DNA of 17,214 bases, taken from UHGV virus genome UHGV-0135926; one strand, 5' to 3'. Shown one piece after another: positions 1,227 through 17,164 of the stretch (position 1 is the first letter of the stretch; every line of letters starts with the position of its first letter). The translations under genes and the position numbers were made by a program. The notes under the pieces are model-generated. The model was not told where the DNA came from. It made no database searches and was given only the letters and a program-made list of their open reading frames with translations. Source of the stretch: a virus.

Positions 1227-2153
1227 TTAAATATTCTCCTGTTTTGGTGCTGCTTTAATCATTGCTGCCCAGCACAACTCAGCCCGGCGCGCCGCCTGGC
1301 GGCATCCACTCAATGCTTCGTATTCCTTCCACTCTTTTTCATCGCTGAAATGCGGATCTGGAACCGATTCGAAGCCGTTAATAATCATGTCCTCGGTCGG
1401 AACGATAGGAACCAGTACGTAACCATCCGGAGTAACCGGAGAGTTGCCCGAGATTGATTCCTGCAATCGTTCCAGCCTCACGTATTCCTGTACGCAGGCG
1501 CCTGAGTAATTATTAAGCCATATAGCAGCCTTTTCTGGTTCTGGCGTATACGTAACTACGTCGCCCGGCTTCCAGCATAGTGCGTACAAGTCGGCGACTG
1601 GTTTAAATTGGGTTTCAGCAAACTTGCAAGCCTGGAGCATGCTTTCTTCGAATTCTGCGACCTGTGGGTCTACTGGCGTAGATAAGTCGCGAACCGCATC
1701 GCCAGCTTGGAGCATGGCGGCGCGGCAGGCGTTCCATCCTCTGACCTCTGCGATTGCAGCTACAGCGTCTATTGCATGCATTTTCGACGCTTCTGGCATC
1801 GGCTTTTCATCTGGCAATACTGGCTCTGCGTTCCTCGATGCCAGCACCTCATCAATCACCTTCAACATATCTGCGAGAATGTAAGCTCTGTTCCCGCCGT
1901 TTGAGTACTGGGTATCATGCTGCAGGTGGTCGCGTATTTGGTGCAGGCGATCGAGTGATACAGGACCGTGCGACGGGTGGTTGTTAGTTGATTTAGAGAA
2001 ATTTCCCCGTTCGTTAATTAAATTACGATGAGTACGCAATTCTCGTAATGCTGAAATTATCTGTGAGAATTTCTCGTCATGAGGCAATGGACCAGAAGAA
2101 TTTACCGCTGATTTAATCAGGCTATCTAACTGCTCATTGGTTATTTTTTCCAT
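1227..2153 (-). CDS. Hypothetical protein (308 aa), no recognisable domain
   Basis: Long ORF. Start chosen at ATG 2151-2153 (MEKITNEQ…), which has AAGGAG 6 nt upstream and overlaps the stop (2153-2155) of the upstream gene. The track's longer start at 2174 has no RBS. Confidence 0.6.
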   Translation of the reverse strand: MEKITNEQLDSLIKSAVNSSGPLPHDEKFSQIISALRELRTHRNLINERGNFSKSTNNHPSHGPVSLDRLHQIRDHLQHDTQYSNGGNRAYILADMLKVIDEVLASRNAEPVLPDEKPMPEASKMHAIDAVAAIAEVRGWNACRAAMLQAGDAVRDLSTPVDPQVAEFEESMLQACKFAETQFKPVADLYALCWKPGDVVTYTPEPEKAAIWLNNYSGACVQEYVRLERLQESISGNSPVTPDGYVLVPIVPTEDMIINGFESVPDPHFSDEKEWKEYEALSGCRQAARRAELCWAAMIKAAPKQENI

Positions 2154-2614
2154 TACCTTCTCCTTATTTCCCAAAGAACGCGTGTAACACCACCATTTCC
2201 TACCGGGTCTCGCTTATCTTTCAGTGCAACGCTTGATGCTGCCCACCCTTTTCTCGCGGGAAGTTCCTTAACCCGGACAAAACCAGCCGCGCGCAGCGAT
2301 GCCCCGGATTCATCCGCTTGGGTGTAGGTTATGCAGCGCTGATAACCCATAGCCTTTGCTGCCCGCCAGATTGCTCCATAAAGAGCGCTGTTAGCGTTGC
2401 GCTCTCCAGTTGTGCAAGTACGGTTAACCTCCAGAGTAAGGCCATCATCGAAATTCCTGGCTATTGGTCTTCCTGCGGTAGCTACGCCAATCAATTCACC
2501 ATCAGAATTTTTCAGACCGATACTAAATTTATGTCCTGTTGGCGGTTTGTTGTGACGGTGATGTTTCGCCACAAATTCTTTGGCAACTTTTAAGGTGATT
2601 GGTGAAATCTGCAT
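2153..2614 (-). CDS. Hypothetical protein (153 aa); possible acyltransferase-like fold (weak)
   Basis: ORF with ATG at 2612-2614, GGGGGAG upstream and its stop overlapping the next start. Family not confidently recognised; the C-terminal …ADESGASLRAAGF… is loosely GNAT-like. Confidence 0.55.
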   Translation of the reverse strand: MQISPITLKVAKEFVAKHHRHNKPPTGHKFSIGLKNSDGELIGVATAGRPIARNFDDGLTLEVNRTCTTGERNANSALYGAIWRAAKAMGYQRCITYTQADESGASLRAAGFVRVKELPARKGWAASSVALKDKRDPVGNGGVTRVLWEIRRR

Positions 2615-7781: not shown

Positions 7782-8628
7782 ATTAACCGGCTACGTATGG
7801 GATGGTTGCGCGGCGTCGGGCATGAAGTTGTCTAGTGTCGCGATCATGGCCCGCCTCGCTGATTTCAGCAGCGATGAGGGCGTGTGCTGGCCGTCCATTG
7901 AAACTATTGCTCGCCAGCTTGGCGCAGGGCCGAGCACTATCAGAACGGCAATCGCTAAGCTTGAAAAAGATGGCTGGCTCACGCGTACACAGCGCCGTAA
8001 TGGTAACCGTAATGCTTCGAACGTGTACCGCCTGAATGTGGCGAAACTTCAGGCTGCCGCATTTTCTCAACTGTCAGATTCTGACACGTCAAAATCTGAC
8101 GCATCAAAATTTGACGCCTCAAAAACTGACCCGTCGAAATCCGTCAAAAACGGCGGTTTTGACCCGTCAGAATCTGGCGGGGATCCGTCAGTAAAATCAA
8201 AACAAGATCCACAAGTAACTTCAAAACCCTCTTGTCCGGTTGCGGCGCAACCAGACCCTGAAGTCGTGATTACTGATCAGGCAATTTTGGTTCTGACCCA
8301 TTTGAACAAGATCAGCGGATCCCGGTATCAGAAATCAAAAACATCCCTGGAGAACATCCGTGCCCGACTGCGTGAGGGATACAGCGTTGCAGACCTGCAA
8401 CTGGTTATCGACCTGAAGCATGAGCACTGGCACGAGAACGACGAGCAGTACCAGTACATGCGCCCGGAAACGCTGTTCGGCCCGAAGAAATTCGAGAGCT
8501 ATCTGCAAAGCGCTACCCGCTGGGAGCAGAAGGGACGGCCTAAACGCGCTGACTGGGGTGCGAAAAAGCGCGATGTGATGGCTTTTGGTCCGGTTGATAC
8601 AACGATTCCAGAGGGGTTCAGAGGATGA
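7771..8628 (+). CDS. Replication initiator (lambda O-like role): N-terminal HTH, iteron-encoded repeat linker, conserved phage C-terminal domain
   Basis: 285 aa; the internal peptide repeat SDSDTSKSDASKFDASKTDPSKS is encoded by the iteron array. Position downstream of the CII analogue. Stop overlaps the next start (ATGA). Confidence 0.8.
   Translation: MSTKLTGYVWDGCAASGMKLSSVAIMARLADFSSDEGVCWPSIETIARQLGAGPSTIRTAIAKLEKDGWLTRTQRRNGNRNASNVYRLNVAKLQAAAFSQLSDSDTSKSDASKFDASKTDPSKSVKNGGFDPSESGGDPSVKSKQDPQVTSKPSCPVAAQPDPEVVITDQAILVLTHLNKISGSRYQKSKTSLENIRARLREGYSVADLQLVIDLKHEHWHENDEQYQYMRPETLFGPKKFESYLQSATRWEQKGRPKRADWGAKKRDVMAFGPVDTTIPEGFRG
8071..8198. repeat. Origin-type iteron array inside the replication gene (15-bp period)
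   Basis: Tandem TGACACGTCAAAATC (8082-8096), TGACGCATCAAAATT (8097-8111), TGACGCCTCAAAAAC (8112-8126), TGACCCGTCGAAATC (8127-8141), then degenerate copies to 8198. Followed by an A-rich stretch. Confidence 0.7.
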
Positions 8629-9506
8629 CGTTAAACAAATATTGCCAGTCGCTGGCGGAACTACGTAGCCAACCAGCCCACGAATTGAAAGAAGTTGGCG
8701 ATCAGTGGCGAACACCGGATCTGCTTTTTTGGGGGATCAACGCGCTATTTGGTCCATTAGTTCTGGACTTGTTTGCTGACGCCGACAACGCGAAATGCCC
8801 GGCATGGTACACCGCCGAAGATAACGCGCTGACGCAGGACTGGTCTGAACGTCTGGCAGAACTGGGTGGCGCTGGCTATGGCAACCCACCGTATAGCCGT
8901 TCGCAGTACCACGAGAAACAGGCGATCACTGGTATGACGCACATCATGAAATACGCAGCAGCCCAGCGCGAGAAGGGCGGTCGCTATGTATTCCTGATAA
9001 AAGCCGCGCCGAGTGAAACGTGGTGGCCGGAAGATGCCGATCACATTGTATTCATTCGCGGGCGCATTGGGTTCGATCTGCCTGTGTGGTTTGTACCTGC
9101 TGACGAAAAACAGAAACCCACCAGCGCGTTTTTTGCCGGTGCCATAGCTGTATTCGATAAGTCGTGGCGTGGTGAGCGGTTCAGCTATATCAACCGCACA
9201 GAACTGGAGGCAAAAGGTCGGGAATTTATGGCGCTGGCTCAATTCGCTGTTGGTAAAGAGCAAACAATTGCAGTGCGGACAGCCCAGGAACCAGTAATAC
9301 CATCGGAAACTGAGTCACGTATCTGGCCTCTAGAGGTTGGTCTGGTGTTTAACCAGGTGGAAGGCGTTGACGTATTGAGTGAGGCTCAGCAGAACAAGCT
9401 GAAAGCCAACATCAATCAACTCTGGCTGGAACGAACGGCCACCAGCGAAATTATTACAATTGCGCGTGGTCTTGTTGGCAGCATGCAGGGGGTAACCCAT
9501 GCGTGA
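8625..9506 (+). CDS. Phage Dam-family DNA N6-adenine methyltransferase
   Basis: 293 aa; catalytic NPPY motif (…GYGNPPYSRS…). Translationally coupled to both neighbours (ATGA at 8625, 8-nt overlap with the next gene). Confidence 0.8.
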   Translation: MTLNKYCQSLAELRSQPAHELKEVGDQWRTPDLLFWGINALFGPLVLDLFADADNAKCPAWYTAEDNALTQDWSERLAELGGAGYGNPPYSRSQYHEKQAITGMTHIMKYAAAQREKGGRYVFLIKAAPSETWWPEDADHIVFIRGRIGFDLPVWFVPADEKQKPTSAFFAGAIAVFDKSWRGERFSYINRTELEAKGREFMALAQFAVGKEQTIAVRTAQEPVIPSETESRIWPLEVGLVFNQVEGVDVLSEAQQNKLKANINQLWLERTATSEIITIARGLVGSMQGVTHA

Positions 9507-11433
9507 GATTATCGTTGATAACTTTGCTGGTGGCGGTGGCGCATCAACGGGTATTGAACTGGCGATCGGGCGCAGCGTGGATATTGCGATAAACCACGAC
9601 GAAAACGCCATTGCGATGCACAAGACGAACCACCCGGACACACTGCATTATTGTGAATCCGTATTTGACGTGGATCCGGTAGCCGCCACCGGAGGTCATC
9701 CTGTCGGACTGGCATGGTTTAGCCCGGACTGCCGACACTTCTCGAAGGCAAAAGGCGCAAAGCCTGTGAAAAAAGAGATACGCGGTCTGGCCTGGATTGT
9801 TCTGCGTTGGGCACTGGCAAAGCGACCGCGCGTGATGATGCTGGAGAACGTGGAAGAGTTCAAAACGTGGGGACCGCTGCTGGCCGATGAAATGCGTCCG
9901 GATCCTGCCCGCACTGGCGAAACATTCAATGCATTTGTCGGCATGCTGTCCACTGGCATTCCTGCTGATCACCCGGCACTGGCTGAGGTTTGTGAGTTTC
10001 TGTCTATCGAAAGAGGTAGCGAGCAGGCACAAAAGCTGGTGGATGGGCTGGGATATGATGTTGATTATCGCGAACTACGTGCGTGTGATTACGGCGCGCC
10101 GACGATCCGCAAACGCTTCTTCATGGTTATGCGTTGCGATGGTTGCCCAATCCAGTGGCCTGCTATTACCCATGGGGATCCTAAGTCTCTGGAGGTGCAA
10201 AGTGGCAGGCTGATGCCATGGCGTACCGCTGCGGAATGTATCGACTGGAATATTCCGGCCCTGTCCATCTTCGACCGCAAAAAACCGCTGGCGGAGAACA
10301 CTCTGAAGCGGATCGCGCGCGGCATACAGCGCTTTGTTATCGAAAGTGCGTCGCCGTTTATTGTGAAGTGCAACCACACGAGCTCAAAAAATGCGTATGA
10401 CGCTTTTCGCGGACAGTCACTGAATGAGCCATTACAGACCATTACTAAAAAACTCGGCTACGCGTTAGCCGTTCCACACCTGACAAAATTCCGCACTGGC
10501 GCAACCGGGCAGCCCCTTACCGAACCTGTTCCGACGGTAACCGCTGGCACGTCAAAACGCCCGGGCGGGAACGGGCATGCACTCGGGATTGTTGAGGCTG
10601 CACTGACGCCATTCCTGGCGGGTAATGGTGGTAGTGAATACCAGGCGAAACCGCGCCCGCTGGATAAACCTGCTCATACCATTCTGAAGCAATCCCGAGC
10701 CTGTCTGGTTGCGCCAGTGATAGCCCGCCAGTTTGGGGCCAGCGTCGGCCACCGTGCAGACGAACCGAGCGCAACCATCACCGCTGGTGGTGGCGGTAAA
10801 TCTCAACCGGTAACGCCTACGCTGATTCAGATGGGTTATGGCGAACGACCTGGGCAAGAACCGCGTGTGCTGCGACTGGATAACCCGCTGGGGACCGTTA
10901 CTGCAGGCGGAAATAAATTTGCGACGGTGAGCGCGTTCCTGGCGAAACACTACGGCGGTAACTATACGGGGCCTGGTGTCAGTATGGATGAACCCGCGCA
11001 TTCAGTGACCACTGTCGACCATCATGCGGTAGTTGCCTCTCATCTGGTGAAACTGCGTGGAACATGCCGCGACGGGCAACGCCTTGATGTGCCAATGCCA
11101 ACAATCACTGCTGGTGGCCAACACGTGGGTGAGGTACGCACATTTCTCGAGACGTATTGCGGGGAAAGTGACGATGAATGGCTGGTAACGATCGATGGGG
11201 TTAAATACCAGATCGTTGATATCGGAATGCGCATGTTGCAGCCGCATGAACTCTACAAAGCGCAGGGCTTCCCGGATGGTTACGTTATTGATCAGGACTA
11301 CCGTGGAAATCGCTATGCAAAAGATAAGCAGGTAGCCCGCTGCGGTAATGCGGTACCACCACCATTCGCCAGGGCGCTGGTGGAGGCAAATCTTCCGGAA
11401 CTGTGTGCAGTGCAACAGCAGGAGGTGGCATGA
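9499..11433 (+). CDS. DNA cytosine-5 methyltransferase with a long repeat-containing variable region
   Basis: 644 aa. Motif I FAGGGG, PC-type motif SPDCRHFS, motif VI MLENV, motif VIII TIRKRFFMV, motif IX LQPHELYKAQGFPDGY, motif X RCGNAVPPPF. Between VIII and IX there are seven tandem units with core h-[DNT]-[EKNV]-P-x-x-[TS]-[IV]-T. Confidence 0.85.
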   Translation: MREIIVDNFAGGGGASTGIELAIGRSVDIAINHDENAIAMHKTNHPDTLHYCESVFDVDPVAATGGHPVGLAWFSPDCRHFSKAKGAKPVKKEIRGLAWIVLRWALAKRPRVMMLENVEEFKTWGPLLADEMRPDPARTGETFNAFVGMLSTGIPADHPALAEVCEFLSIERGSEQAQKLVDGLGYDVDYRELRACDYGAPTIRKRFFMVMRCDGCPIQWPAITHGDPKSLEVQSGRLMPWRTAAECIDWNIPALSIFDRKKPLAENTLKRIARGIQRFVIESASPFIVKCNHTSSKNAYDAFRGQSLNEPLQTITKKLGYALAVPHLTKFRTGATGQPLTEPVPTVTAGTSKRPGGNGHALGIVEAALTPFLAGNGGSEYQAKPRPLDKPAHTILKQSRACLVAPVIARQFGASVGHRADEPSATITAGGGGKSQPVTPTLIQMGYGERPGQEPRVLRLDNPLGTVTAGGNKFATVSAFLAKHYGGNYTGPGVSMDEPAHSVTTVDHHAVVASHLVKLRGTCRDGQRLDVPMPTITAGGQHVGEVRTFLETYCGESDDEWLVTIDGVKYQIVDIGMRMLQPHELYKAQGFPDGYVIDQDYRGNRYAKDKQVARCGNAVPPPFARALVEANLPELCAVQQQEVA

Positions 11434-11829: not shown

Positions 11830-12513
11830 ATGAGCCAATTAGCAACAACAGCATTAACCATGTCCAGCAGCGATATTGCTGAGCTGGTGGAATCACGACA
11901 TGACCATGTTAAACGGTCCATTGAACGCCTGGCAGAGCGCGGTGTTATTGAACTCCCCCCAATGGGGGAAGTTAAAAATCACCTCAATCAGTCGGTATCG
12001 GTTTATCTGATAGGGAAGCGGGACAGTTATATCGTTGTCGCGCAGCTGTCGCCGGAGTTTACCGCGCGTCTGGTTGATCGCTGGCAGGAGCTTGAGCAGG
12101 CACAGCAGCAGACGATTCCTCAATCATTCTCTGAAGCCCTACGTCTTGCAGCTGACCTTGCAGAACAAAAACAGCAGTTGACTAACGAACTGGCTGCCGC
12201 GGCGCCGAAGGTAGCGTTTGTTGATCGGTACTGTACAGCCAGTGGGTCAATGTCATTCCGCCAGGTGGCAAAACTGCTTAAGGCCAAAGAGCCAGATCTG
12301 CGGTTATTCCTCCTTGAGAACGACATCATGTATCGCCTTGGCGGAACGATGACCCCACGGCATCAGCATATTGATGCGGGCCGTTTTGAAGTGAAAACCG
12401 GCACATCCGTAACCTCAAATCATGCATTCAGCCAGGCACGTTTCACGGCGAAAGGCGTGCGCTGGATTGGTGGACTGTGGGCAGAACACATTGCCAGGGG
12501 GCAGGTCGCGTGA
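11830..12513 (+). CDS. Rha-family phage regulatory protein with C-terminal KilAC/antirepressor-like domain
   Basis: Start chosen at ATG 11830 (GGAG about 6 nt upstream). N-terminus (…SSSDIAELVESRHDHVKRSIERL…) is Rha-like; the C-terminus is ANT/KilAC-like. Confidence 0.65.
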   Translation: MSQLATTALTMSSSDIAELVESRHDHVKRSIERLAERGVIELPPMGEVKNHLNQSVSVYLIGKRDSYIVVAQLSPEFTARLVDRWQELEQAQQQTIPQSFSEALRLAADLAEQKQQLTNELAAAAPKVAFVDRYCTASGSMSFRQVAKLLKAKEPDLRLFLLENDIMYRLGGTMTPRHQHIDAGRFEVKTGTSVTSNHAFSQARFTAKGVRWIGGLWAEHIARGQVA

Positions 12514-13505
12514 GAGCTCTGCTTACCCCCGAGATCGCCCATCGTATGGGGATTGTGCTGTTCCGTCCCGGTGCGGAACTGATGCACCTCTTCATGCGTG
12601 GTCGCGTTCTGCTCGAGCCTGAACCAGAAGAAATGGCGTCATTCAGTACCGGGGCTGTTCCGGCAGCCATTCAGCCGCTGGCTGATGATCCGGTAATGCG
12701 TCAGGTCTTCGAGAATGAGAGGGTTATTCAGCGTGCCGGTGGGATTTCTTCCCTTGAGCAATGGTTGAGTAATCGGTTTGTATGCCAGTGGCCACATTCA
12801 ACGTGGCACGACAAGAACTTCACAACAATGCGGCACCCACCAGGAAGCATTCGCCTGTGCTGGCATTGCGATCACACTTTGTCGGGGCAGCATACCGAAC
12901 AGCTTGCAGGTATAGCGGCCGGAAACCTGGTATCCTGGATTCTGGAAGTCATTCGGCGTGATTCTGGTTTTCCCGAGTCGCATATCCTGACGCTTCCGGA
13001 ACTGTGCTGGTGGATGGTTAGAAACGACCTGGCTGATGTTATTCCGGAAAGCGTTGCGCACAAGGGGCTACGCCTTCCGGATGAGAAGATCCGCTCGGTC
13101 ATGAGGGAAAGCGACATTGTGCCTTCCGCGTCTGCAACCAGCCTCGTGCAGGAGAAGGCGAAGAAGATCCTAACGCTCTCTGTTGATCCGGAGTCGCCAG
13201 AGTCTTTCATGCTCAGGCCAAAGCGACGCCGCTGGGTAAATGAGACGTACACCCGCTGGGTTAAAACACAACCCTGTGAGTGTTGCCGACGGCCAGCAGA
13301 TGATCCGCACCATATCGTAGGGCACGGTATGGGTGGTACAGCAACAAAAGCCCATGACCTCTTCGTGATCCCTCTGTGCAGAGAGTGCCACGACGAGTTA
13401 CACGCCGATGTACCAGCATTCGAGCAGAAGCATGGTACGCAGCTTGAGCTGCTACTGCGTTTTATGGATCGGGCGCTGGCGATCGGCGTAATTGCGAAAG
13501 CTTAA
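12510..13505 (+). CDS. DUF968 / YdfU-like protein with C-terminal Cys/His HNH-like motif
   Basis: GTG at 12510-12512 overlaps the upstream TGA (GTGA). C-terminal …CECCRRP…HHIVGHGMGG…PLCRECHDELH… resembles the Qin-prophage YdfU family, which sits next to QuuQ in E. coli. Confidence 0.6.
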   Translation: MRALLTPEIAHRMGIVLFRPGAELMHLFMRGRVLLEPEPEEMASFSTGAVPAAIQPLADDPVMRQVFENERVIQRAGGISSLEQWLSNRFVCQWPHSTWHDKNFTTMRHPPGSIRLCWHCDHTLSGQHTEQLAGIAAGNLVSWILEVIRRDSGFPESHILTLPELCWWMVRNDLADVIPESVAHKGLRLPDEKIRSVMRESDIVPSASATSLVQEKAKKILTLSVDPESPESFMLRPKRRRWVNETYTRWVKTQPCECCRRPADDPHHIVGHGMGGTATKAHDLFVIPLCRECHDELHADVPAFEQKHGTQLELLLRFMDRALAIGVIAKA

Positions 13506-13520
13506 ACGTATGGAGACCGT

Positions 13521-14351
13521 ATGAACCTGGATAATGTACTGAAATTTTTTGCGCCGAAAGGTATGCACATATCAGATACCAGCAGAGCGACAGCCAGTGA
13601 ACAACTGACGGTTACTGATGTAATGGCTGCACTGGGGATGACTCAGGCCGATGCGGGGATAGGCCTGGCAATGTTTCTGGGCAAAGCTGGTATCAGCAGC
13701 CAGGACAGGGAGGCGTCAATAGCTTGGCTAACGGAGTACGCGAAAGAGCATGCGCCCATGGCCATTCGTAAAGCGTCAGGGAAAAAGTTTCCCCTCTGCA
13801 TGCGTATTCTTGCCCGGTTTGCCTATAACGATTATTCCTCATCAGCCGCTGATAGCGTGGCATGCCCAAAATGTAGTGGTAAAGGGTTGCTTACAACTAC
13901 TAAAACCGTGACTAAAAGTCATTACACAATGCGATTGCCACAATGGGCAAAAGACCTGAGACAGTCACCATCTGACTTTGAGGTTAAGCGCGATGTAACT
14001 GACACTGATCATACGTTATGTTCCCGCTGCCATGGCACAGGAAAGTTAAGTAAGCGATGCCAGTGCGGCGGCACAGGTAAGACTATTGACCGTAAAGCGA
14101 CAGAACTGCAGGGCGTACCGGTTTACAAAGAATGTAAGCGCTGTGAAGGTCGGGGATACAGCAGGCCAAAATCATCGGTTGCCTATCGAGGTGTTTTTTC
14201 TGAGTTGCCGAGTCTGCCTGACCGAACGTGGCGTTATAGCTGGAAACCATTCTATGAAAGCCTGGTGACCAAATGTTTCCAGGAGGAGAGTTATTCAAGC
14301 TCTCAACTGAATCGGGTGACTAAAAGTGAAGATGTGATAAATATCGCGTAA
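13521..14351 (+). CDS. Q: Late-gene antiterminator Q (QuuQ-like) with four CxxCxGxG-type zinc-finger motifs
   Basis: 276 aa; GGAG 5 nt before the ATG. Position immediately upstream of a pR'/tR' unit and the lysis genes. Motifs CPKCSGKG, CSRCHGTGK, CQCGGTGK, CKRCEGRGY. Family assigned by context and size rather than a clear sequence match. Confidence 0.6.
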   Translation: MNLDNVLKFFAPKGMHISDTSRATASEQLTVTDVMAALGMTQADAGIGLAMFLGKAGISSQDREASIAWLTEYAKEHAPMAIRKASGKKFPLCMRILARFAYNDYSSSAADSVACPKCSGKGLLTTTKTVTKSHYTMRLPQWAKDLRQSPSDFEVKRDVTDTDHTLCSRCHGTGKLSKRCQCGGTGKTIDRKATELQGVPVYKECKRCEGRGYSRPKSSVAYRGVFSELPSLPDRTWRYSWKPFYESLVTKCFQEESYSSSQLNRVTKSEDVINIA

Positions 14352-14367
14352 TTTAGCGTCATGATGT

Positions 14368-14408
14368 TTGCAATGTTGCCGTTTTTGTGTATATTTGACA
14401 TTAACGAT
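14368..14408 (+). promoter_or_regulatory. Late promoter pR' with promoter-proximal pause element
   Basis: TTGCAA (14368-14373), 16 nt, TATATT (14390-14395), then tgacattAACGATGGG (14403-14411). Lambda pR', as I recall it, is TAAATT-tgactc-AACGATGGG with the AACGAT pause-inducing element. Confidence 0.55.
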
Positions 14409-14432
14409 GGGCATTGTATGTTCAGAGTTAAG

Positions 14433-14459
14433 AAACCCGCCACCGAGCGGGTTTTTTTT
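14433..14459 (+). terminator. tR'-type intrinsic terminator
   Basis: Stem aaacccgc (14433-14440) / gcgggttt (14447-14454), loop caccga, followed by a T8 run. Confidence 0.75.
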
Positions 14460-14493
14460 GCACTAGGCCATTCAATCTACGTAAAAATCAATG

Positions 14494-14502
14494 TGTTACA
14501 AT
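14494..14502 (+). promoter_or_regulatory. Candidate extended -10 promoter for the moron gene
   Basis: TGtTACAAT (TG at 14494-14495, hexamer 14497-14502) about 36 nt upstream of the ATG at 14538. No convincing -35. Confidence 0.3.
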
Positions 14503-14537
14503 AGCCGCAAGCAAAACGACAACACAAAGGCGGCATA

Positions 14538-14780
14538 ATGAAATTAACATCTGTTCATATCGAAACTCTGAGTCGCGCAAGCGCTCTTGGACCACGTGAA
14601 ACAATTCAATCTTCTGATCTTCCTCACATTCCAGCGGAAGCGGTGAATTTTGCTATTTCTGATCTCGCTGAGTTGGGTCTGGTAAATGCTGTGCAGAGTA
14701 CGTCTGATTGTGACGACAGCTGGATAGTGAATAGAATTACGTCTAAAGGGAATAGCTATTTAATTGATCTTGAGTCTTAA
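14538..14780 (+). CDS. Moron-encoded small acidic protein (80 aa), function unknown
   Basis: ATG 14538 with AAAGG 7 nt upstream. AT-richer than flanking genes. Sits between tR' and the holin gene, with its own candidate promoter and terminator. Confidence 0.55.
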   Translation: MKLTSVHIETLSRASALGPRETIQSSDLPHIPAEAVNFAISDLAELGLVNAVQSTSDCDDSWIVNRITSKGNSYLIDLES

Positions 14781-14817
14781 CTATCTGATTAATAAATAGG
14801 TACACCACATTTATTAA

Positions 14818-14840
14818 GGCTGCCTTCTGGTGGCCTTTTT
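14818..14840 (+). terminator. Candidate intrinsic terminator after the moron gene
   Basis: RNA stem GGCUGCC / GGUGGCC (two G-U pairs), loop UUCU, followed by UUUUU (14836-14840). Confidence 0.45.
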
Positions 14841-15021
14841 CATATTCAGGGCTCACTGACGGACGGCTCATAACCCAATCCGACAGGCGCTTGCGCAGAG
14901 CCCGTTCTGATTCAGGATCACGGGAATCATCCTCGATACGCATTGTTGATAAATCCAGCCCGTGAAGCCTGATCCTCCTTTCATCACACAGCGCCATCCG
15001 AACTATCGGAGGTGAGAGACC

Positions 15022-15357
15022 ATGAAAATGCACAACGACCCTCACTCCTGGACGGAGTTAATTGAGTTACTTCATAGCTGGTGGCGCGGTGATACGCCAA
15101 TGGGTGCCGTCCTTTTATCGGTAGCGATGGCTGTACTGCGAATTGCGTATGTCGGCGGTGGCTGGAAAAAGATGGTGCTGGAAGGGTTGATGTGTGGCGC
15201 CATGACGCTGACGGCTGTTTCCGCACTCGAGTATTTCAACCTTCCACAGTCTCTTTCCATCGCTATCGGTGGCGCGCTGGGTTTCGTTGGCGTTGAGCAG
15301 GTGCGCTCAATGGCCACGCGTGTTTTCAACGTTCGCTTTGGTGGCGACGCCAAGTAA
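15022..15357 (+). CDS. Class I holin (lambda S-like) with dual-start motif
   Basis: N-terminal M-K-M dual start, three predicted transmembrane segments, charged C-terminus, GGAGG upstream. First gene of the lysis cassette. Confidence 0.8.
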   Translation: MKMHNDPHSWTELIELLHSWWRGDTPMGAVLLSVAMAVLRIAYVGGGWKKMVLEGLMCGAMTLTAVSALEYFNLPQSLSIAIGGALGFVGVEQVRSMATRVFNVRFGGDAK

Positions 15358-15366
15358 GGGATCCCC

Positions 15367-15981
15367 ATGAACCAACAACAATTTCAGCAGGCGGCTGGTA
15401 TCAGCGCCGGGCTTTCTGCACGCTGGTTTCTGCACATTGATGCGGCAATGAAAGAGTTTGGAATTACAGCAGTTAACGATCAGGCCATGTTCATTGCACA
15501 AGTTGGGCATGAATCTGCTGGTTTTACCTCGCTGGTCGAGAGCTTCAACTACTCGGTAGACGGGCTGAAGAAAACCTTTGGTAAGCGCTTGACGCCGTAC
15601 CAGTGCGAAATACTGGGGCGTGTCGATGGTAAACAGGTCGCTCACCAGCCACAAATAGCCAATCTGGTTTACGGTGACCGTATGGGGAATAACAGCCAGG
15701 GTGACGGCTGGAAATATCGCGGTCGTGGCCTGCTTCAAATCACCGGCCGCGAGAACTACACCAAATGCGGTTCGGCGCTGAAGCTTGACCTTGTCAGTAC
15801 GCCAGAACTTCTGACGCAAGAGCGACATGCGGCTCGTTCGGCGGCGTGGTACTTCACCATGCGTGGTTGTCTGCTTTATTCGGGCGACATCGTGCGTGTC
15901 ACGCAGATCATCAATGGTGGCCAGAATGGACTGACTGACCGTAAGGTGCGTTACAGCCGGTCGCTGGCGGAGCTGTCATGA
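15367..15981 (+). CDS. Endolysin, glycoside hydrolase family 19 type
   Basis: 204 aa; GH19-like motifs FIAQVGHESAGF and LLQITGRENY. No N-terminal signal-anchor, so a canonical holin-dependent endolysin. AAGGGA upstream. Confidence 0.85.
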   Translation: MNQQQFQQAAGISAGLSARWFLHIDAAMKEFGITAVNDQAMFIAQVGHESAGFTSLVESFNYSVDGLKKTFGKRLTPYQCEILGRVDGKQVAHQPQIANLVYGDRMGNNSQGDGWKYRGRGLLQITGRENYTKCGSALKLDLVSTPELLTQERHAARSAAWYFTMRGCLLYSGDIVRVTQIINGGQNGLTDRKVRYSRSLAELS

Positions 15982-16379
15982 TGGCGCTTATCACTCTCTT
16001 TGGTTTGTTTAAAGCGCATTGGCGCTGGTGGCTGACTATCGTTGCGCTGGTTATCTTCTCCTGGCTCTGGAATGAAAATACTCGCATCAGTGCCAGCCTG
16101 AACACGCTACAGGATGCGAACGACAGCAACCGCGCTGTAATGGATAACGTACTGAAAACCGTTGCCATCACCAATATGATTCTGGGAGCTAACCAGCATG
16201 CAAAAAACCAGATCGCACTGGAGTCACAGAGAACTCAGGAAGATATCAAAGTGGCTGTTGCGGGTGATGATTGCTCTCGCCGGCCTGTTCCTGCTGCAGC
16301 TGCTGACCGGCTGCGGCAATACGCGGACGGTGTACGTACCAGTGCCGCAGCAACCAGTTCCGTCCAATCTGACCGCTGA
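15978..16379 (+). CDS. Rz: Rz-like inner-membrane spanin (i-spanin)
   Basis: ATGA overlap with the endolysin stop. N-terminal transmembrane segment (WWLTIVALVIFSWLW) followed by a predicted coiled-coil periplasmic domain. Confidence 0.75.
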   Translation: MMALITLFGLFKAHWRWWLTIVALVIFSWLWNENTRISASLNTLQDANDSNRAVMDNVLKTVAITNMILGANQHAKNQIALESQRTQEDIKVAVAGDDCSRRPVPAAAADRLRQYADGVRTSAAATSSVQSDR

Positions 16380-16748: not shown

Positions 16749-16813
16749 CGGCATTACAGCAGGCATTCACTGAGTGCCTGCGATAATGCTATGCGTTTTT
16801 TTGGGGAGTGAAT

Positions 16814-17164
16814 ATGCCACCGCGCACACCGAAGGCTTGTCGCGTTCGCGGCTGTCGGAACACCACAACAGACCCGTCTGGCTACTGTGAAAATCACAAA
16901 GGTGAAGGCTGGAAGTCCTATAAGCCAGGTCAATCACGGCAGCAGCGTGGATACGGAACAAAGTGGGAAGTCATACGGGAGCGGATACTTAAGCGCGACA
17001 AAGGGCTGTGTCAGAACCATCTTCGGCAGGGAGTAGTGAAGCAGGCGTCCTGCGTGGACCATATCAAAGCGAAGGCCCACGGCGGCACTGATGAAGACAG
17101 CAACCTTGAAAGCCTGTGTTGGTCGTGTCACGCAGCGAAGACTGCGCGTGAACGGCTCAAATGA
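16814..17164 (+). CDS. HNH endonuclease (terminase-associated type)
   Basis: ATG 16814 with GGGGAG 5 nt upstream (the track begins at GTG 16808). Cys-rich N-terminus (CRVRGCRN…CENH) and HNH core (…CQNH…CVDHIKAKAHGG…NLESLCWSCHAAK). Confidence 0.8.
   Translation: MPPRTPKACRVRGCRNTTTDPSGYCENHKGEGWKSYKPGQSRQQRGYGTKWEVIRERILKRDKGLCQNHLRQGVVKQASCVDHIKAKAHGGTDEDSNLESLCWSCHAAKTARERLK

What the first reader, a model, noticed from the sequence alone, without database searches (positions are those of the whole stretch)
13521..14351. Q-position antiterminator carrying four DnaJ-like CxxCxGxG motifs
The 276-aa protein at the Q position has four Cys-rich motifs of the form CxxCxGxG in its C-terminal half, the pattern of the DnaJ zinc-finger domain. 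It would be worth checking how this relates to the zinc-binding region of characterised Q families.
Basis: partly seen in the sequence, partly recalled or inferred. Interest (0 to 1): 0.4.

Follow-up and report, generated by a model that had tools for sequence, protein, structure and literature searches.

The report
Phi80-type lambda-family Q antiterminator
This is an ordinary late-gene antiterminator of the phage lambda Q family, in the longer form already seen in phage phi80 and in E. coli K-12, in which two of the four "DnaJ-like" cysteine motifs are lambda Q's own zinc ribbon and the other two close an inserted hairpin whose job is still unknown.

Summary
The ORF 13521-14351 (276 aa) is real. 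It carries three exact CxxCxGxG motifs (C115, C167, C205) and one CxCxGxG variant (C180).

It is a full-length member of the Q-lambda family (PF03589, 157.7 bits; E 7e-44 to PDB 7UBM chain Q). Relative to lambda Q it has a ~63-residue insert (residues 113-175) immediately before lambda's zinc ribbon.
- Motifs 3 and 4 align with lambda C118/C121 and C144/C147.
- Motifs 1 and 2 flank a predicted long beta-hairpin and probably bind a second zinc. This makes two zinc ribbons in tandem, not DnaJ's interleaved arrangement.

The same four-motif form occurs in phi80 Q, Fels-1 Q, K-12 Qin YdfT/QuuQ and 132 of 250 phage records. Public databases already tag it with PF00684.

Directly downstream lies a lambda-like pR'. 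It has the conserved AACGATGGG pause element, a clade-invariant spacer (GTTGCCGTTTTTGTG), two terminators and the lysis cassette.

The one unexplained point is the 26-residue hairpin tip. It is 88-96% identical in homologs only about 50% identical overall, with many synonymous changes, so it is probably a binding surface for an unknown partner.

Verdict: already known and low interest.

The parts
13521..14351 (+). Q gene, 276 aa; long (phi80-type) member of the Q-lambda family
13521..13700 (+). Residues 1-60: homolog of the lambda Q N-terminal segment, which refolds into the RNA-exit-channel nozzle
   Evidence: Query 1-112 aligns with lambda 1-114. The role of lambda residues 1-60 is taken from PMC9388147.
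13863..13886 (+). Motif 1, C115-P-K-C118-S-G-K-G (exact CxxCxGxG); first knuckle of the inserted zinc module
   Evidence: C115 and C118 are 98% conserved.
13887..14018 (+). Residues 123-166: predicted long beta-hairpin (strands 123-135 and 154-166) with two short helices at its tip; absent from lambda Q
   Evidence: Secondary structure is the same in two independent AF2 models. Insert boundaries come from the lambda alignment.
13914..13991 (+). Residues 132-157, hairpin tip KSHYTMRLPQWAKDLRQSPSDFEVKR: the most conserved segment within its clade
   Evidence: 88-96% identical in homologs that are 47-51% identical overall. About half of the identical-residue codons differ synonymously.
14019..14042 (+). 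Motif 2, C167-S-R-C170-H-G-T-G (exact); second knuckle of the inserted module
   Evidence: C167 and C170 are invariant in 105 sequences.
14058..14078 (+). Motif 3, C180-Q-C182-G-G-T-G (CxCxGxG variant); aligns with lambda Q C118/C121
   Evidence: HMMER alignment to lambda Q. 98% conserved.
14079..14132 (+). Residues 187-204: homolog of the lambda Q arm (strand-helix-strand), including TELQG, which corresponds to lambda TELWG 133-137 with E134, the sigma region 4 contact
   Evidence: Alignment. Model elements E187-189, H191-197, E202-204. Lambda contacts are from PMC9388147 and its preprint.
14133..14156 (+). Motif 4, C205-K-R-C208-E-G-R-G (exact); aligns with lambda Q C144/C147
   Evidence: Invariant.
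14367..14395 (+). pR'-like late promoter: -35 TTTGCA (14367-14372), 17-nt spacer with candidate Q-binding element ATGTTGCCGTTTTTGTG (14373-14389), -10 TATATT (14390-14395)
   Evidence: Promoter scan. Collinear with lambda pR' and with the annotated phi80 pR' and Q site. The spacer is invariant in 8 loci whose Q proteins are 76-96% identical.
14403..14411 (+). AACGATGGG: homolog of the lambda sigma-dependent pause element
   Evidence: AACG-TGGG is invariant in window, Kp4866-6, K-12 Qin, phi80 and lambda.
14431..14459 (+). First intrinsic terminator (tR'-like): 10-bp GC-rich stem followed by a run of eight T
   Evidence: Folding of the 69-nt stretch 14402-14470, which also holds an upstream hairpin, gives -22.9 kcal/mol, z -3.1. 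The terminator is conserved in related loci.
14538..14780 (+). 80-aa ORF of unknown function in the late leader (moron slot)
   Evidence: phrog_32916. Replaced by a different gene in locus L007, which has an identical Q.
14816..14842 (+). Second intrinsic terminator, upstream of the holin gene
   Evidence: Terminator scan. Folding z -3.3.
15022..16379 (+). Lysis cassette presumed to be under Q control: holin 15022-15357, endolysin 15367-15981, Rz-like spanin 15978-16379
   Evidence: PHROG hits phrog_126, phrog_181 and phrog_214.

Best explanation
The gene encodes the late-gene antiterminator of a lambdoid prophage, most likely from Citrobacter or Salmonella. It belongs to the Q-lambda family, in the long subtype also seen in phi80 Q and E. 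coli K-12 Qin YdfT/QuuQ.

Inferred mechanism, by homology with lambda Q:
- The helix-turn-helix body and the zinc-ribbon arm bind a Q-binding element between the -35 and -10 of the adjacent pR'.
- Q engages RNA polymerase paused by sigma70 at the AACGATGGG element.
- The N-terminal ~60 residues refold into a nozzle on the RNA exit channel.
- The modified polymerase reads through the terminators at 14431-14459 and 14816-14842 into the lysis and morphogenesis genes.

The four Cys motifs are not a captured DnaJ domain:
- Motifs 3 and 4 are lambda Q's own zinc ribbon.
- Motifs 1 and 2 sit at the two ends of a ~63-residue insert. They most likely bind a second zinc that clasps the base of a long beta-hairpin projecting from the base of the Q arm.
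- The strongly conserved hairpin tip probably contacts a conserved partner (host RNA polymerase, sigma or NusA). That partner is unknown.
For: Shown here:
- PF03589 at 157.7 bits and phrog_127 E 3.6e-94.
- Lambda Q aligns in two pieces, query 1-112 with lambda 1-114 and query 176-268 with lambda 114-207. C180/C182/C205/C208 fall on lambda C118/C121/C144/C147, with the same 23-residue spacing between C182 and C205.
- Equal 13-residue strands directly follow motif 1 and directly precede motif 2 in both models.
- All 8 Cys are at least 98% conserved.
- phi80 Q, Fels-1 Q and K-12 YdfT have the same four motifs.
- The pR', pause element and terminator are collinear with lambda and with the annotated phi80 pR'.
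- The promoter spacer is invariant across 8 loci.
- In L007, Q plus promoter are inherited as a unit while the downstream genes differ.
- The hairpin tip is under purifying selection.

Inferred from PMC9388147: the loading and nozzle mechanism, and that the insert lies between lambda residues that touch the RNA polymerase beta' zinc-binding domain.
Against: - No activity was measured.
- The zinc pairing is deduced from predicted secondary structure only.
- Motif 3 has CxC geometry, which is unusual for a zinc knuckle.
- The partner of the hairpin tip is a guess.
Confidence: 0.85

Rival explanations
1. The four motifs form a genuine DnaJ-type cysteine-rich domain: two interleaved zinc centres (motif 1 with 4, motif 2 with 3) in a V-shaped hairpin. 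It would have been acquired from a chaperone and would act in protein binding or folding, giving Q a chaperone-like activity.
For: - PF00684 reaches its gathering score, 32.7 against 32.7.
- TIGR02349 DnaJ_bact gives E 2.2e-6.
- Some homologs are auto-named 'molecular chaperone'.
Against: - There is no J domain and no DnaJ C-terminal domain.
- Motifs 3 and 4, with the segment between them, are homologous to lambda Q's zinc ribbon with identical spacing.
- The two long strands both lie between motifs 1 and 2, which places those two knuckles together.
- The profile against DnaJ 1exk gives only E 0.0037 over 26 positions, against 3e-10 for lambda Q.
- Lambda Q, a pure antiterminator, already has two CxxCxGxG knuckles.
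Confidence: 0.08
2. The insert is a neutral or decaying decoration in a cryptic prophage. The extra cysteines bind no metal and contribute nothing, and the protein works, if at all, exactly like short lambda Q.
For: - Lambda, P22 and HK022 Q work without the insert (one search shows them as short forms).
- K-12 YdfT sits in a cryptic prophage.
- The hairpin strands are highly variable, 7-19% identical.
Against: - All four extra cysteines are 98-100% conserved across Enterobacterales.
- The tip is 88-96% identical at about 50% overall identity, with roughly half of the identical-residue codons synonymously changed.
- The long form is present in viable phages such as phi80 and Fels-1.
Confidence: 0.05
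3. The extra hairpin is a second DNA-reading arm that lengthens or changes the Q-binding element, rather than contacting host proteins.
For: - In lambda Q, residues next to the zinc ligands touch QBE positions 11-13, and the insert enters exactly there.
- The tip carries R, K and W residues.
- The promoter spacer is invariant within the clade.
Against: Q proteins with nearly identical tips sit next to different promoter spacers: GTTGCCGTTTTTGTG, TTCCCGAATCTGTGT and ATTGAATGGAATGGAC. The tip also carries several acidic residues.
Confidence: 0.15

Closest known systems
Bacteriophage lambda Q (PDB 4MO1, 7UBJ-7UBN; Pfam PF03589)
   Same: - Homologous over the full length (E 7e-44). This covers the N-terminal nozzle segment, the four-helix body with helix-turn-helix, the zinc ribbon with two CxxCxGxG-type knuckles, and the TEL(W/Q)G arm tip.
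- Same gene position.
- Same pR' layout, with the AACGATGGG pause element.

   Different: - 276 aa against 207 aa, from a ~63-residue insert between lambda residues 114 and 117 that carries two extra knuckles and a long hairpin.
- The first lambda-equivalent knuckle is CxC rather than CxxC.
- The promoter spacer (Q-binding element) sequence differs.

Phage phi80 Q (gp17, JX871397 41137-41946). Its DNA-binding regions were studied by Guo and Roberts, J Bacteriol 2004, a paper cited in PMC9388147 but not readable here
   Same: - Same long architecture with four motifs (CDCCDGGG, CKPCNGKG, CRCHGKG, CDRCGGRG), including the CxC third motif.
- A related tip motif, Y..P.W.K...PSD[FW]E.
- pR' with a Q site between -35 and -10, a TAACGCTGGG pause element and two terminators before the holin.

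   Different: - Only 38% identical overall.
- A different Q-binding sequence: TCGCGGA is annotated in the phi80 record.
- The tip is 38% identical.

E. coli K-12 Qin prophage YdfT (QuuQ), 250 aa
   Same: - 38% identical over the full length, with four motifs.
- Preceded by the DUF968 gene ydfU, as here.
- Its downstream promoter carries AACGATGGG and a terminator.

   Different: - A shorter hairpin with an unrelated tip.
- The third motif is a regular CxxC (CRGCKGKG); the fourth ends NR rather than xG.
- It lies in a cryptic prophage.

DnaJ/Hsp40 cysteine-rich domain (Pfam PF00684; PDB 1EXK, 1NLT, 7ZHS) and relatives anti-TRAP and BSD2
   Same: - The CxxCxGxG knuckle motif repeated four times.
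- Pfam score at threshold.

   Different: - No J domain and no substrate-binding domains.
- Predicted tandem rather than interleaved zinc sites.
- Very unequal spacing: 44, 5 and 18 residues lie between successive 8-residue motifs.
- Sequence similarity is limited to the knuckles (E 0.0037).

Q21 (PF06530) and Q82 (PF06323) families
   Same: Same regulatory role and same genome position, according to PMC9388147.
   Different: No sequence or fold relationship. This protein hits neither family. Gifsy-1 AntQ, which sits next to isrK, is annotated as similar to phage 82 Q and is therefore unrelated.

Membership tests
Q-lambda family (Pfam PF03589) | Profile match above the curated cut-off | tested here: met
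   157.7 bits against 26.7. phrog_127 'anti-termination protein Q-like' E 3.6e-94 over 1-268.
Q-lambda family (Pfam PF03589) | Full-length homology to lambda Q, including the N-terminal segment that forms the nozzle | tested here: met
   phmmer against 7ubm_Q: query 1-112 with lambda 1-114 (E 1e-20) and query 176-268 with lambda 114-207 (E 2e-20).
Q-lambda family (Pfam PF03589) | Four zinc-ribbon cysteines (lambda C118, C121, C144, C147) and the arm between them | tested here: met
   C180, C182, C205 and C208 align with them. The C-to-C spacing of 23 is kept and TELQG corresponds to lambda TELWG. The first knuckle is CxC. Metal binding itself was not tested.
Q-lambda family (Pfam PF03589) | Lambda Q fold (helical body with helix-turn-helix, plus arm) | tested here: met
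   [not shown]
Q-lambda family (Pfam PF03589) | Gene placed between the nin/RusA region and a late promoter that has a Q site between -35 and -10, a sigma-dependent pause element, a terminator and then lysis genes | tested here: met
   Gene order. Promoter and pause element are collinear with lambda and phi80. Terminators.
Q-lambda family (Pfam PF03589) | Antitermination activity at its own qut site | not testable with these tools
   Needs a pR'-tR'-reporter or an in vitro transcription assay.
Long (phi80/QuuQ-type) subgroup of the Q-lambda family | Insert of ~35-65 residues with two extra Cys knuckles immediately before the lambda-type zinc ribbon | tested here: met
   Alignment with phi80 Q, Fels-1 Q, K-12 YdfT and 100+ homologs. 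132 of 250 phage records cover at least 80% of the query. About 22-25 clusters at 50% identity match the whole module.
DnaJ cysteine-rich domain (Pfam PF00684) | Four CxxCxGxG repeats, profile match above cut-off | tested here: inconclusive
   Three exact repeats plus one CxCxGxG. The score of 32.7 bits equals the 32.7 cut-off and covers only residues 167-214, profile positions 1-53 of 65. The hit is marked 'faint' in the precomputed table.
DnaJ cysteine-rich domain (Pfam PF00684) | Embedded in a type I Hsp40, with a J domain before it and the C-terminal substrate-binding domain around it | tested here: not met
   No J-domain or DnaJ_C hit at E up to 1. The flanks are lambda Q body.
DnaJ cysteine-rich domain (Pfam PF00684) | Interleaved zinc centres (motif 1 with 4, motif 2 with 3) | tested here: inconclusive
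   Predicted strands 123-135 and 154-166 both lie between motifs 1 and 2, and motifs 3 and 4 keep lambda's ribbon. This argues for tandem sites. No coordinates or metal were available.
DnaJ cysteine-rich domain (Pfam PF00684) | Fold similarity to solved cysteine-rich domains | tested here: inconclusive
   [not shown]

The most novel reading that the evidence does not exclude
The inserted zinc-clasped hairpin is a functional module that lambda Q lacks. It is present in roughly half of the Q-lambda-family genes found in the sequenced-phage collection searched here. Its tip is the most strongly conserved part of the protein across Q proteins that use different promoter spacers. The tip would make an additional contact with the host transcription machinery (RNA polymerase beta' zinc-binding domain, flap, sigma region 4 or NusA). 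Long-form Q proteins would then load onto, or hold, RNA polymerase differently from the solved lambda Q complexes.
Probability: 0.3. Interest if true: 0.45.

Novelty: already known. Interest (0 to 1): 0.18.

Why it matters
There is little new here. The protein is an annotated 'antitermination protein'. Its exact sequence is present in public Enterobacterales assemblies and gut metagenomes. Its Antiterm plus DnaJ_CXXCXGXG domain combination is already recorded. The same architecture is found in phi80 Q, which has been studied experimentally.

The check is useful in three ways:
- It clarifies that the 'DnaJ-like' motifs are largely the Q-lambda zinc ribbon itself, so auto-annotations such as 'molecular chaperone' for some homologs are misleading.
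- It shows that all solved Q-lambda structures represent only the short form.
- It shows that the extra hairpin has a tip under unusually strong purifying selection, and its partner would be worth finding for anyone working on Q loading.

Tried and rejected
- **Internal duplication.** I tested whether the insert is a duplicate of the lambda-type ribbon. hhalign of residues 110-176 against 176-216 aligns only the 10-column knuckle, so there is no evidence beyond the motif.
- **Recent recombination at the tip.** Rejected, because about half of the identical-residue codons differ, including changes between the two Ser codon families.
- **Rfam on 14300-15100.** Only sub-threshold hits: Trp_leader 23 bits, isrK 15.9 bits. 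These reflect the leader hairpin and terminator.
- **The isrK lead.** It led to Gifsy-1 AntQ, whose record describes it as similar to phage 82 Q, so it is irrelevant here.
- **Literature.** Searches for QuuQ, for Q with zinc and DnaJ, and for CXXCXGXG with antitermination found nothing on the four-motif form. Guo and Roberts 2004 and Vorobiev 2014 are not held.
- **Source organism.** An exact-DNA scan of representative genomes found nothing. A protein-based scan found Citrobacter sp. at 96% as the nearest relative.
- **Model coordinates.** They are not exposed, so Cys-Cys distances could not be measured.

Full report
**Observation.** The ORF at 13521-14351 on the + strand is real. It runs from ATG to TAA, encodes 276 aa, and has a GGAG ribosome-binding site 6 nt upstream. 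It contains three exact CxxCxGxG motifs: C115PKCSGKG, C167SRCHGTG and C205KRCEGRG. A fourth motif is a one-residue-shorter variant, C180QCGGTG, which is CxCxGxG. The motifs span residues 115-212, so they sit in the middle of the protein rather than strictly in the C-terminal half. In an alignment of 105 homologs reaching down to about 38% identity, all eight cysteines are 98-100% conserved. 67 of 103 long homologs have exactly this '3 exact + 1 CxC' pattern. The pattern is therefore a conserved feature and not a chance occurrence.

**What the protein is.**
- It scores 157.7 bits against Pfam PF03589 (Antiterm, the Q-lambda family; cut-off 26.7) and E 3.6e-94 against PHROG 127 'anti-termination protein Q-like'.
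- Against PDB sequences the best match is lambda Q (7ubm_Q, E 7e-44). It aligns in two collinear pieces: query 1-112 with lambda 1-114, and query 176-268 with lambda 114-207.
- The protein is thus lambda Q from end to end, with about 63 extra residues (113-175) inserted just before lambda's zinc ribbon.
- An AlphaFold2 model built on the 105-sequence alignment has mean pLDDT 81.8.

**How the four motifs relate to the zinc site of characterised Q proteins.** Lambda Q's own zinc ribbon is made of two CxxCxGxG knuckles, C118RDCHGTG and C144GRCKGVG.
- Motifs 3 and 4 here align with those knuckles. The 23-residue spacing between the second and third ligand is identical.
- The intervening arm is conserved, including TELQG for lambda TELWG. 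That segment contains E134, the residue that faces sigma region 4 in the lambda complex.
- Motifs 1 and 2 lie at the two ends of the insert.
- In both the full-length model and an independent model of residues 108-216 (pLDDT 76), motif 1 is followed directly by a 13-residue strand (123-135). Motif 2 is preceded directly by another 13-residue strand (154-166). Two short helices lie between the strands.
- The simplest reading is a long beta-hairpin whose base is clasped by a second zinc bound to motifs 1 and 2. That makes two zinc ribbons in tandem.
- This pairing is an inference.

**Is it a DnaJ domain?** Only at the level of the knuckle motif.
- PF00684 scores 32.7 bits, exactly its cut-off, and covers only residues 167-214.
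- No J domain or DnaJ C-terminal domain is detected.
- A profile of the Cys-rich region finds lambda Q at E 3e-10 but DnaJ (1exk) only at E 0.0037, over 26 positions.
- The predicted topology is tandem, whereas the DnaJ arrangement, as I recall it from the published DnaJ structures (not checked here), is interleaved: motif 1 with 4 and motif 2 with 3.
- A profile-profile comparison of the insert with the lambda-type ribbon aligns only the 10-column knuckle, so there is no evidence for an internal duplication either.

**How common the architecture is.**
- phi80 Q (gp17), Fels-1 Q and E. coli K-12 Qin YdfT/QuuQ all have the same four motifs.
- phi80 and most homologs share the CxC third motif. 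YdfT has a regular CxxC there.
- In the phage collection, 250 records encode a relative. In 132 of them the match covers at least 80% of the query (long form). Lambda, P22, HK022 and their relatives match in two pieces covering 72% (short form).
- Homologs occur in Salmonella, Citrobacter, E. coli, Cronobacter, Yersinia, Serratia, Photorhabdus, Xenorhabdus and Morganella. Nearly all already carry the precomputed Pfam combination PF27659 + PF03589 + PF00684. A few are even named 'molecular chaperone'.
- A profile of the Cys-rich region finds 124 clusters at 50% identity (E up to 0.001). About 22-25 of them match the whole module at full Q length.
- The exact protein is on record in many assemblies, including a 5.3-Mb NCBI chromosome and human gut metagenomes. 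The nearest species-representative genome is a Citrobacter sp., at 96%.
- phi80 Q was studied experimentally by Guo and Roberts (J Bacteriol 2004; cited in PMC9388147). I could not read that paper.

**Does it act on the adjacent late transcription unit?** The sequence downstream is collinear with lambda pR'.
- Lambda reads catgatATTGACT-17 nt-TAAATTtgactcAACGATGGG.
- The window reads catgatGTTTGCA-17 nt-TATATTtgacattAACGATGGG.
- In a five-way alignment of window, Klebsiella phage Kp4866-6, K-12 Qin, phi80 and lambda, the -35, the -10 and the AACG-TGGG pause element are invariant.
- The phi80 record annotates its Q-binding site at the same place in the spacer.
- In eight loci whose Q proteins are 76-96% identical, the spacer GTTGCCG(T/C)TTTTGTG is essentially invariant. 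Non-coding identity there is 84%, higher than the 72% nucleotide identity of the Q gene itself against Kp4866-6.
- An intrinsic terminator follows at 14431-14459. The 69-nt stretch 14402-14470 folds at -22.9 kcal/mol, z -3.1.
- Next come an 80-aa ORF of unknown function, a second terminator at 14816-14842, and then holin, endolysin and Rz.
- In locus L007 an identical Q is followed by the same promoter and spacer. The sequence diverges right after the pause element, into a different terminator, cargo gene and holins. Q and its promoter site therefore travel together as one module.

**Mechanism.** This is inferred by homology with the lambda structures in PMC9388147.
1. The body and arm bind the Q-binding element.
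2. The arm tip contacts repositioned sigma region 4 at the paused complex.
3. Zinc-ribbon residues contact the beta' zinc-binding domain.
4. The N-terminal ~60 residues, which are 44-88% conserved across the family, refold into a nozzle on the RNA exit channel.
5. The polymerase then ignores the two terminators.

The lambda residues reported to touch the beta' zinc-binding domain are 110-112, 117 and 122-126. They flank the insertion point, and their counterparts are kept here (S108-A110, R179, G183-K187). The extra hairpin therefore emerges at the interface between Q, DNA and RNA polymerase.

**The one unexplained feature.**
- The hairpin tip (residues 132-157, KSHYTMRLPQWAKDLRQSPSDFEVKR) is 88-96% identical in about 25 homologs that are only 47-51% identical overall.
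- The hairpin strands on either side of it are only 7-19% identical.
- Codon comparison rules out recent recombination. Against P0049 the tip is 96% identical in protein but 76% in DNA, and 13 of 25 identical-residue codons differ. Against P0057 the figure is 12 of 23.
- These Q proteins sit next to different promoter spacers. The tip is therefore unlikely to read the phage-specific DNA site and more likely binds a conserved host component.
- phi80 and Fels-1 keep a looser version of the motif. Other clades and K-12 YdfT have unrelated, shorter tips.

**Verdict.** The object is an ordinary, already annotated member of the Q-lambda family, in the phi80/QuuQ long form. The DnaJ resemblance is a shared zinc-knuckle motif that lambda Q already has. 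What remains open is what the second zinc module and its conserved tip do. That is a modest, testable question for structural work on Q loading.

Noticed in passing
window 12477-13505 (+): A DUF968/HNH-type gene (phrog_96, PF06147) lies directly upstream of Q. This is the same ydfU-ydfT gene pair as in the E. coli K-12 Qin prophage.
   Followed up: partly
window 14538-14780 (+); locus L007 3841-4491: An 80-aa ORF of unknown function (phrog_32916) sits between the two late-leader terminators, in a moron slot. In a gut-metagenome contig with an identical Q, the slot holds a different 216-aa gene and different holins. The mosaic joint lies right after the pause element.
   Followed up: partly
window 13914-13991 (Q residues 132-157): The hairpin tip of the inserted zinc module is far more conserved (88-96%) than the rest of the protein (about 50%) in one clade. 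It shows abundant synonymous change. Its partner is unknown.
   Followed up: partly
window 14364-14460 (+): Sub-threshold Rfam hits (Trp_leader 23 bits, isrK 15.9 bits, Thr_leader) fall on the short pR'-proximal transcript. They probably only reflect its hairpin plus terminator. Short pR' transcripts are regulatory sRNAs in some phages: StxS, named from memory of PMC7547250, whose abstract I saw, and IsrK.
   Followed up: partly
[not shown]
   Followed up: no
window 8625-9506 and 9499-11433 (+); 2153-2614 (-): Two adjacent DNA-methyltransferase-like genes are present. One also hits a PAPS-reductase-like PHROG; the other is 644 aa. A Mom-like DNA modification gene lies in the early region, so the prophage carries an unusually heavy DNA-modification load.
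   Followed up: no
window 16808-17164 (+): An HNH endonuclease gene lies just before the terminase small subunit seen in related loci. As I recall, this HNH-terminase pairing is usual for cos-type packaging modules.
   Followed up: no
homologs P0086, P0089 (Xenorhabdus): Some long-form Q proteins are named 'molecular chaperone' in public records, apparently because of the DnaJ cysteine-rich-domain hit. This is likely a mis-annotation.
   Followed up: no
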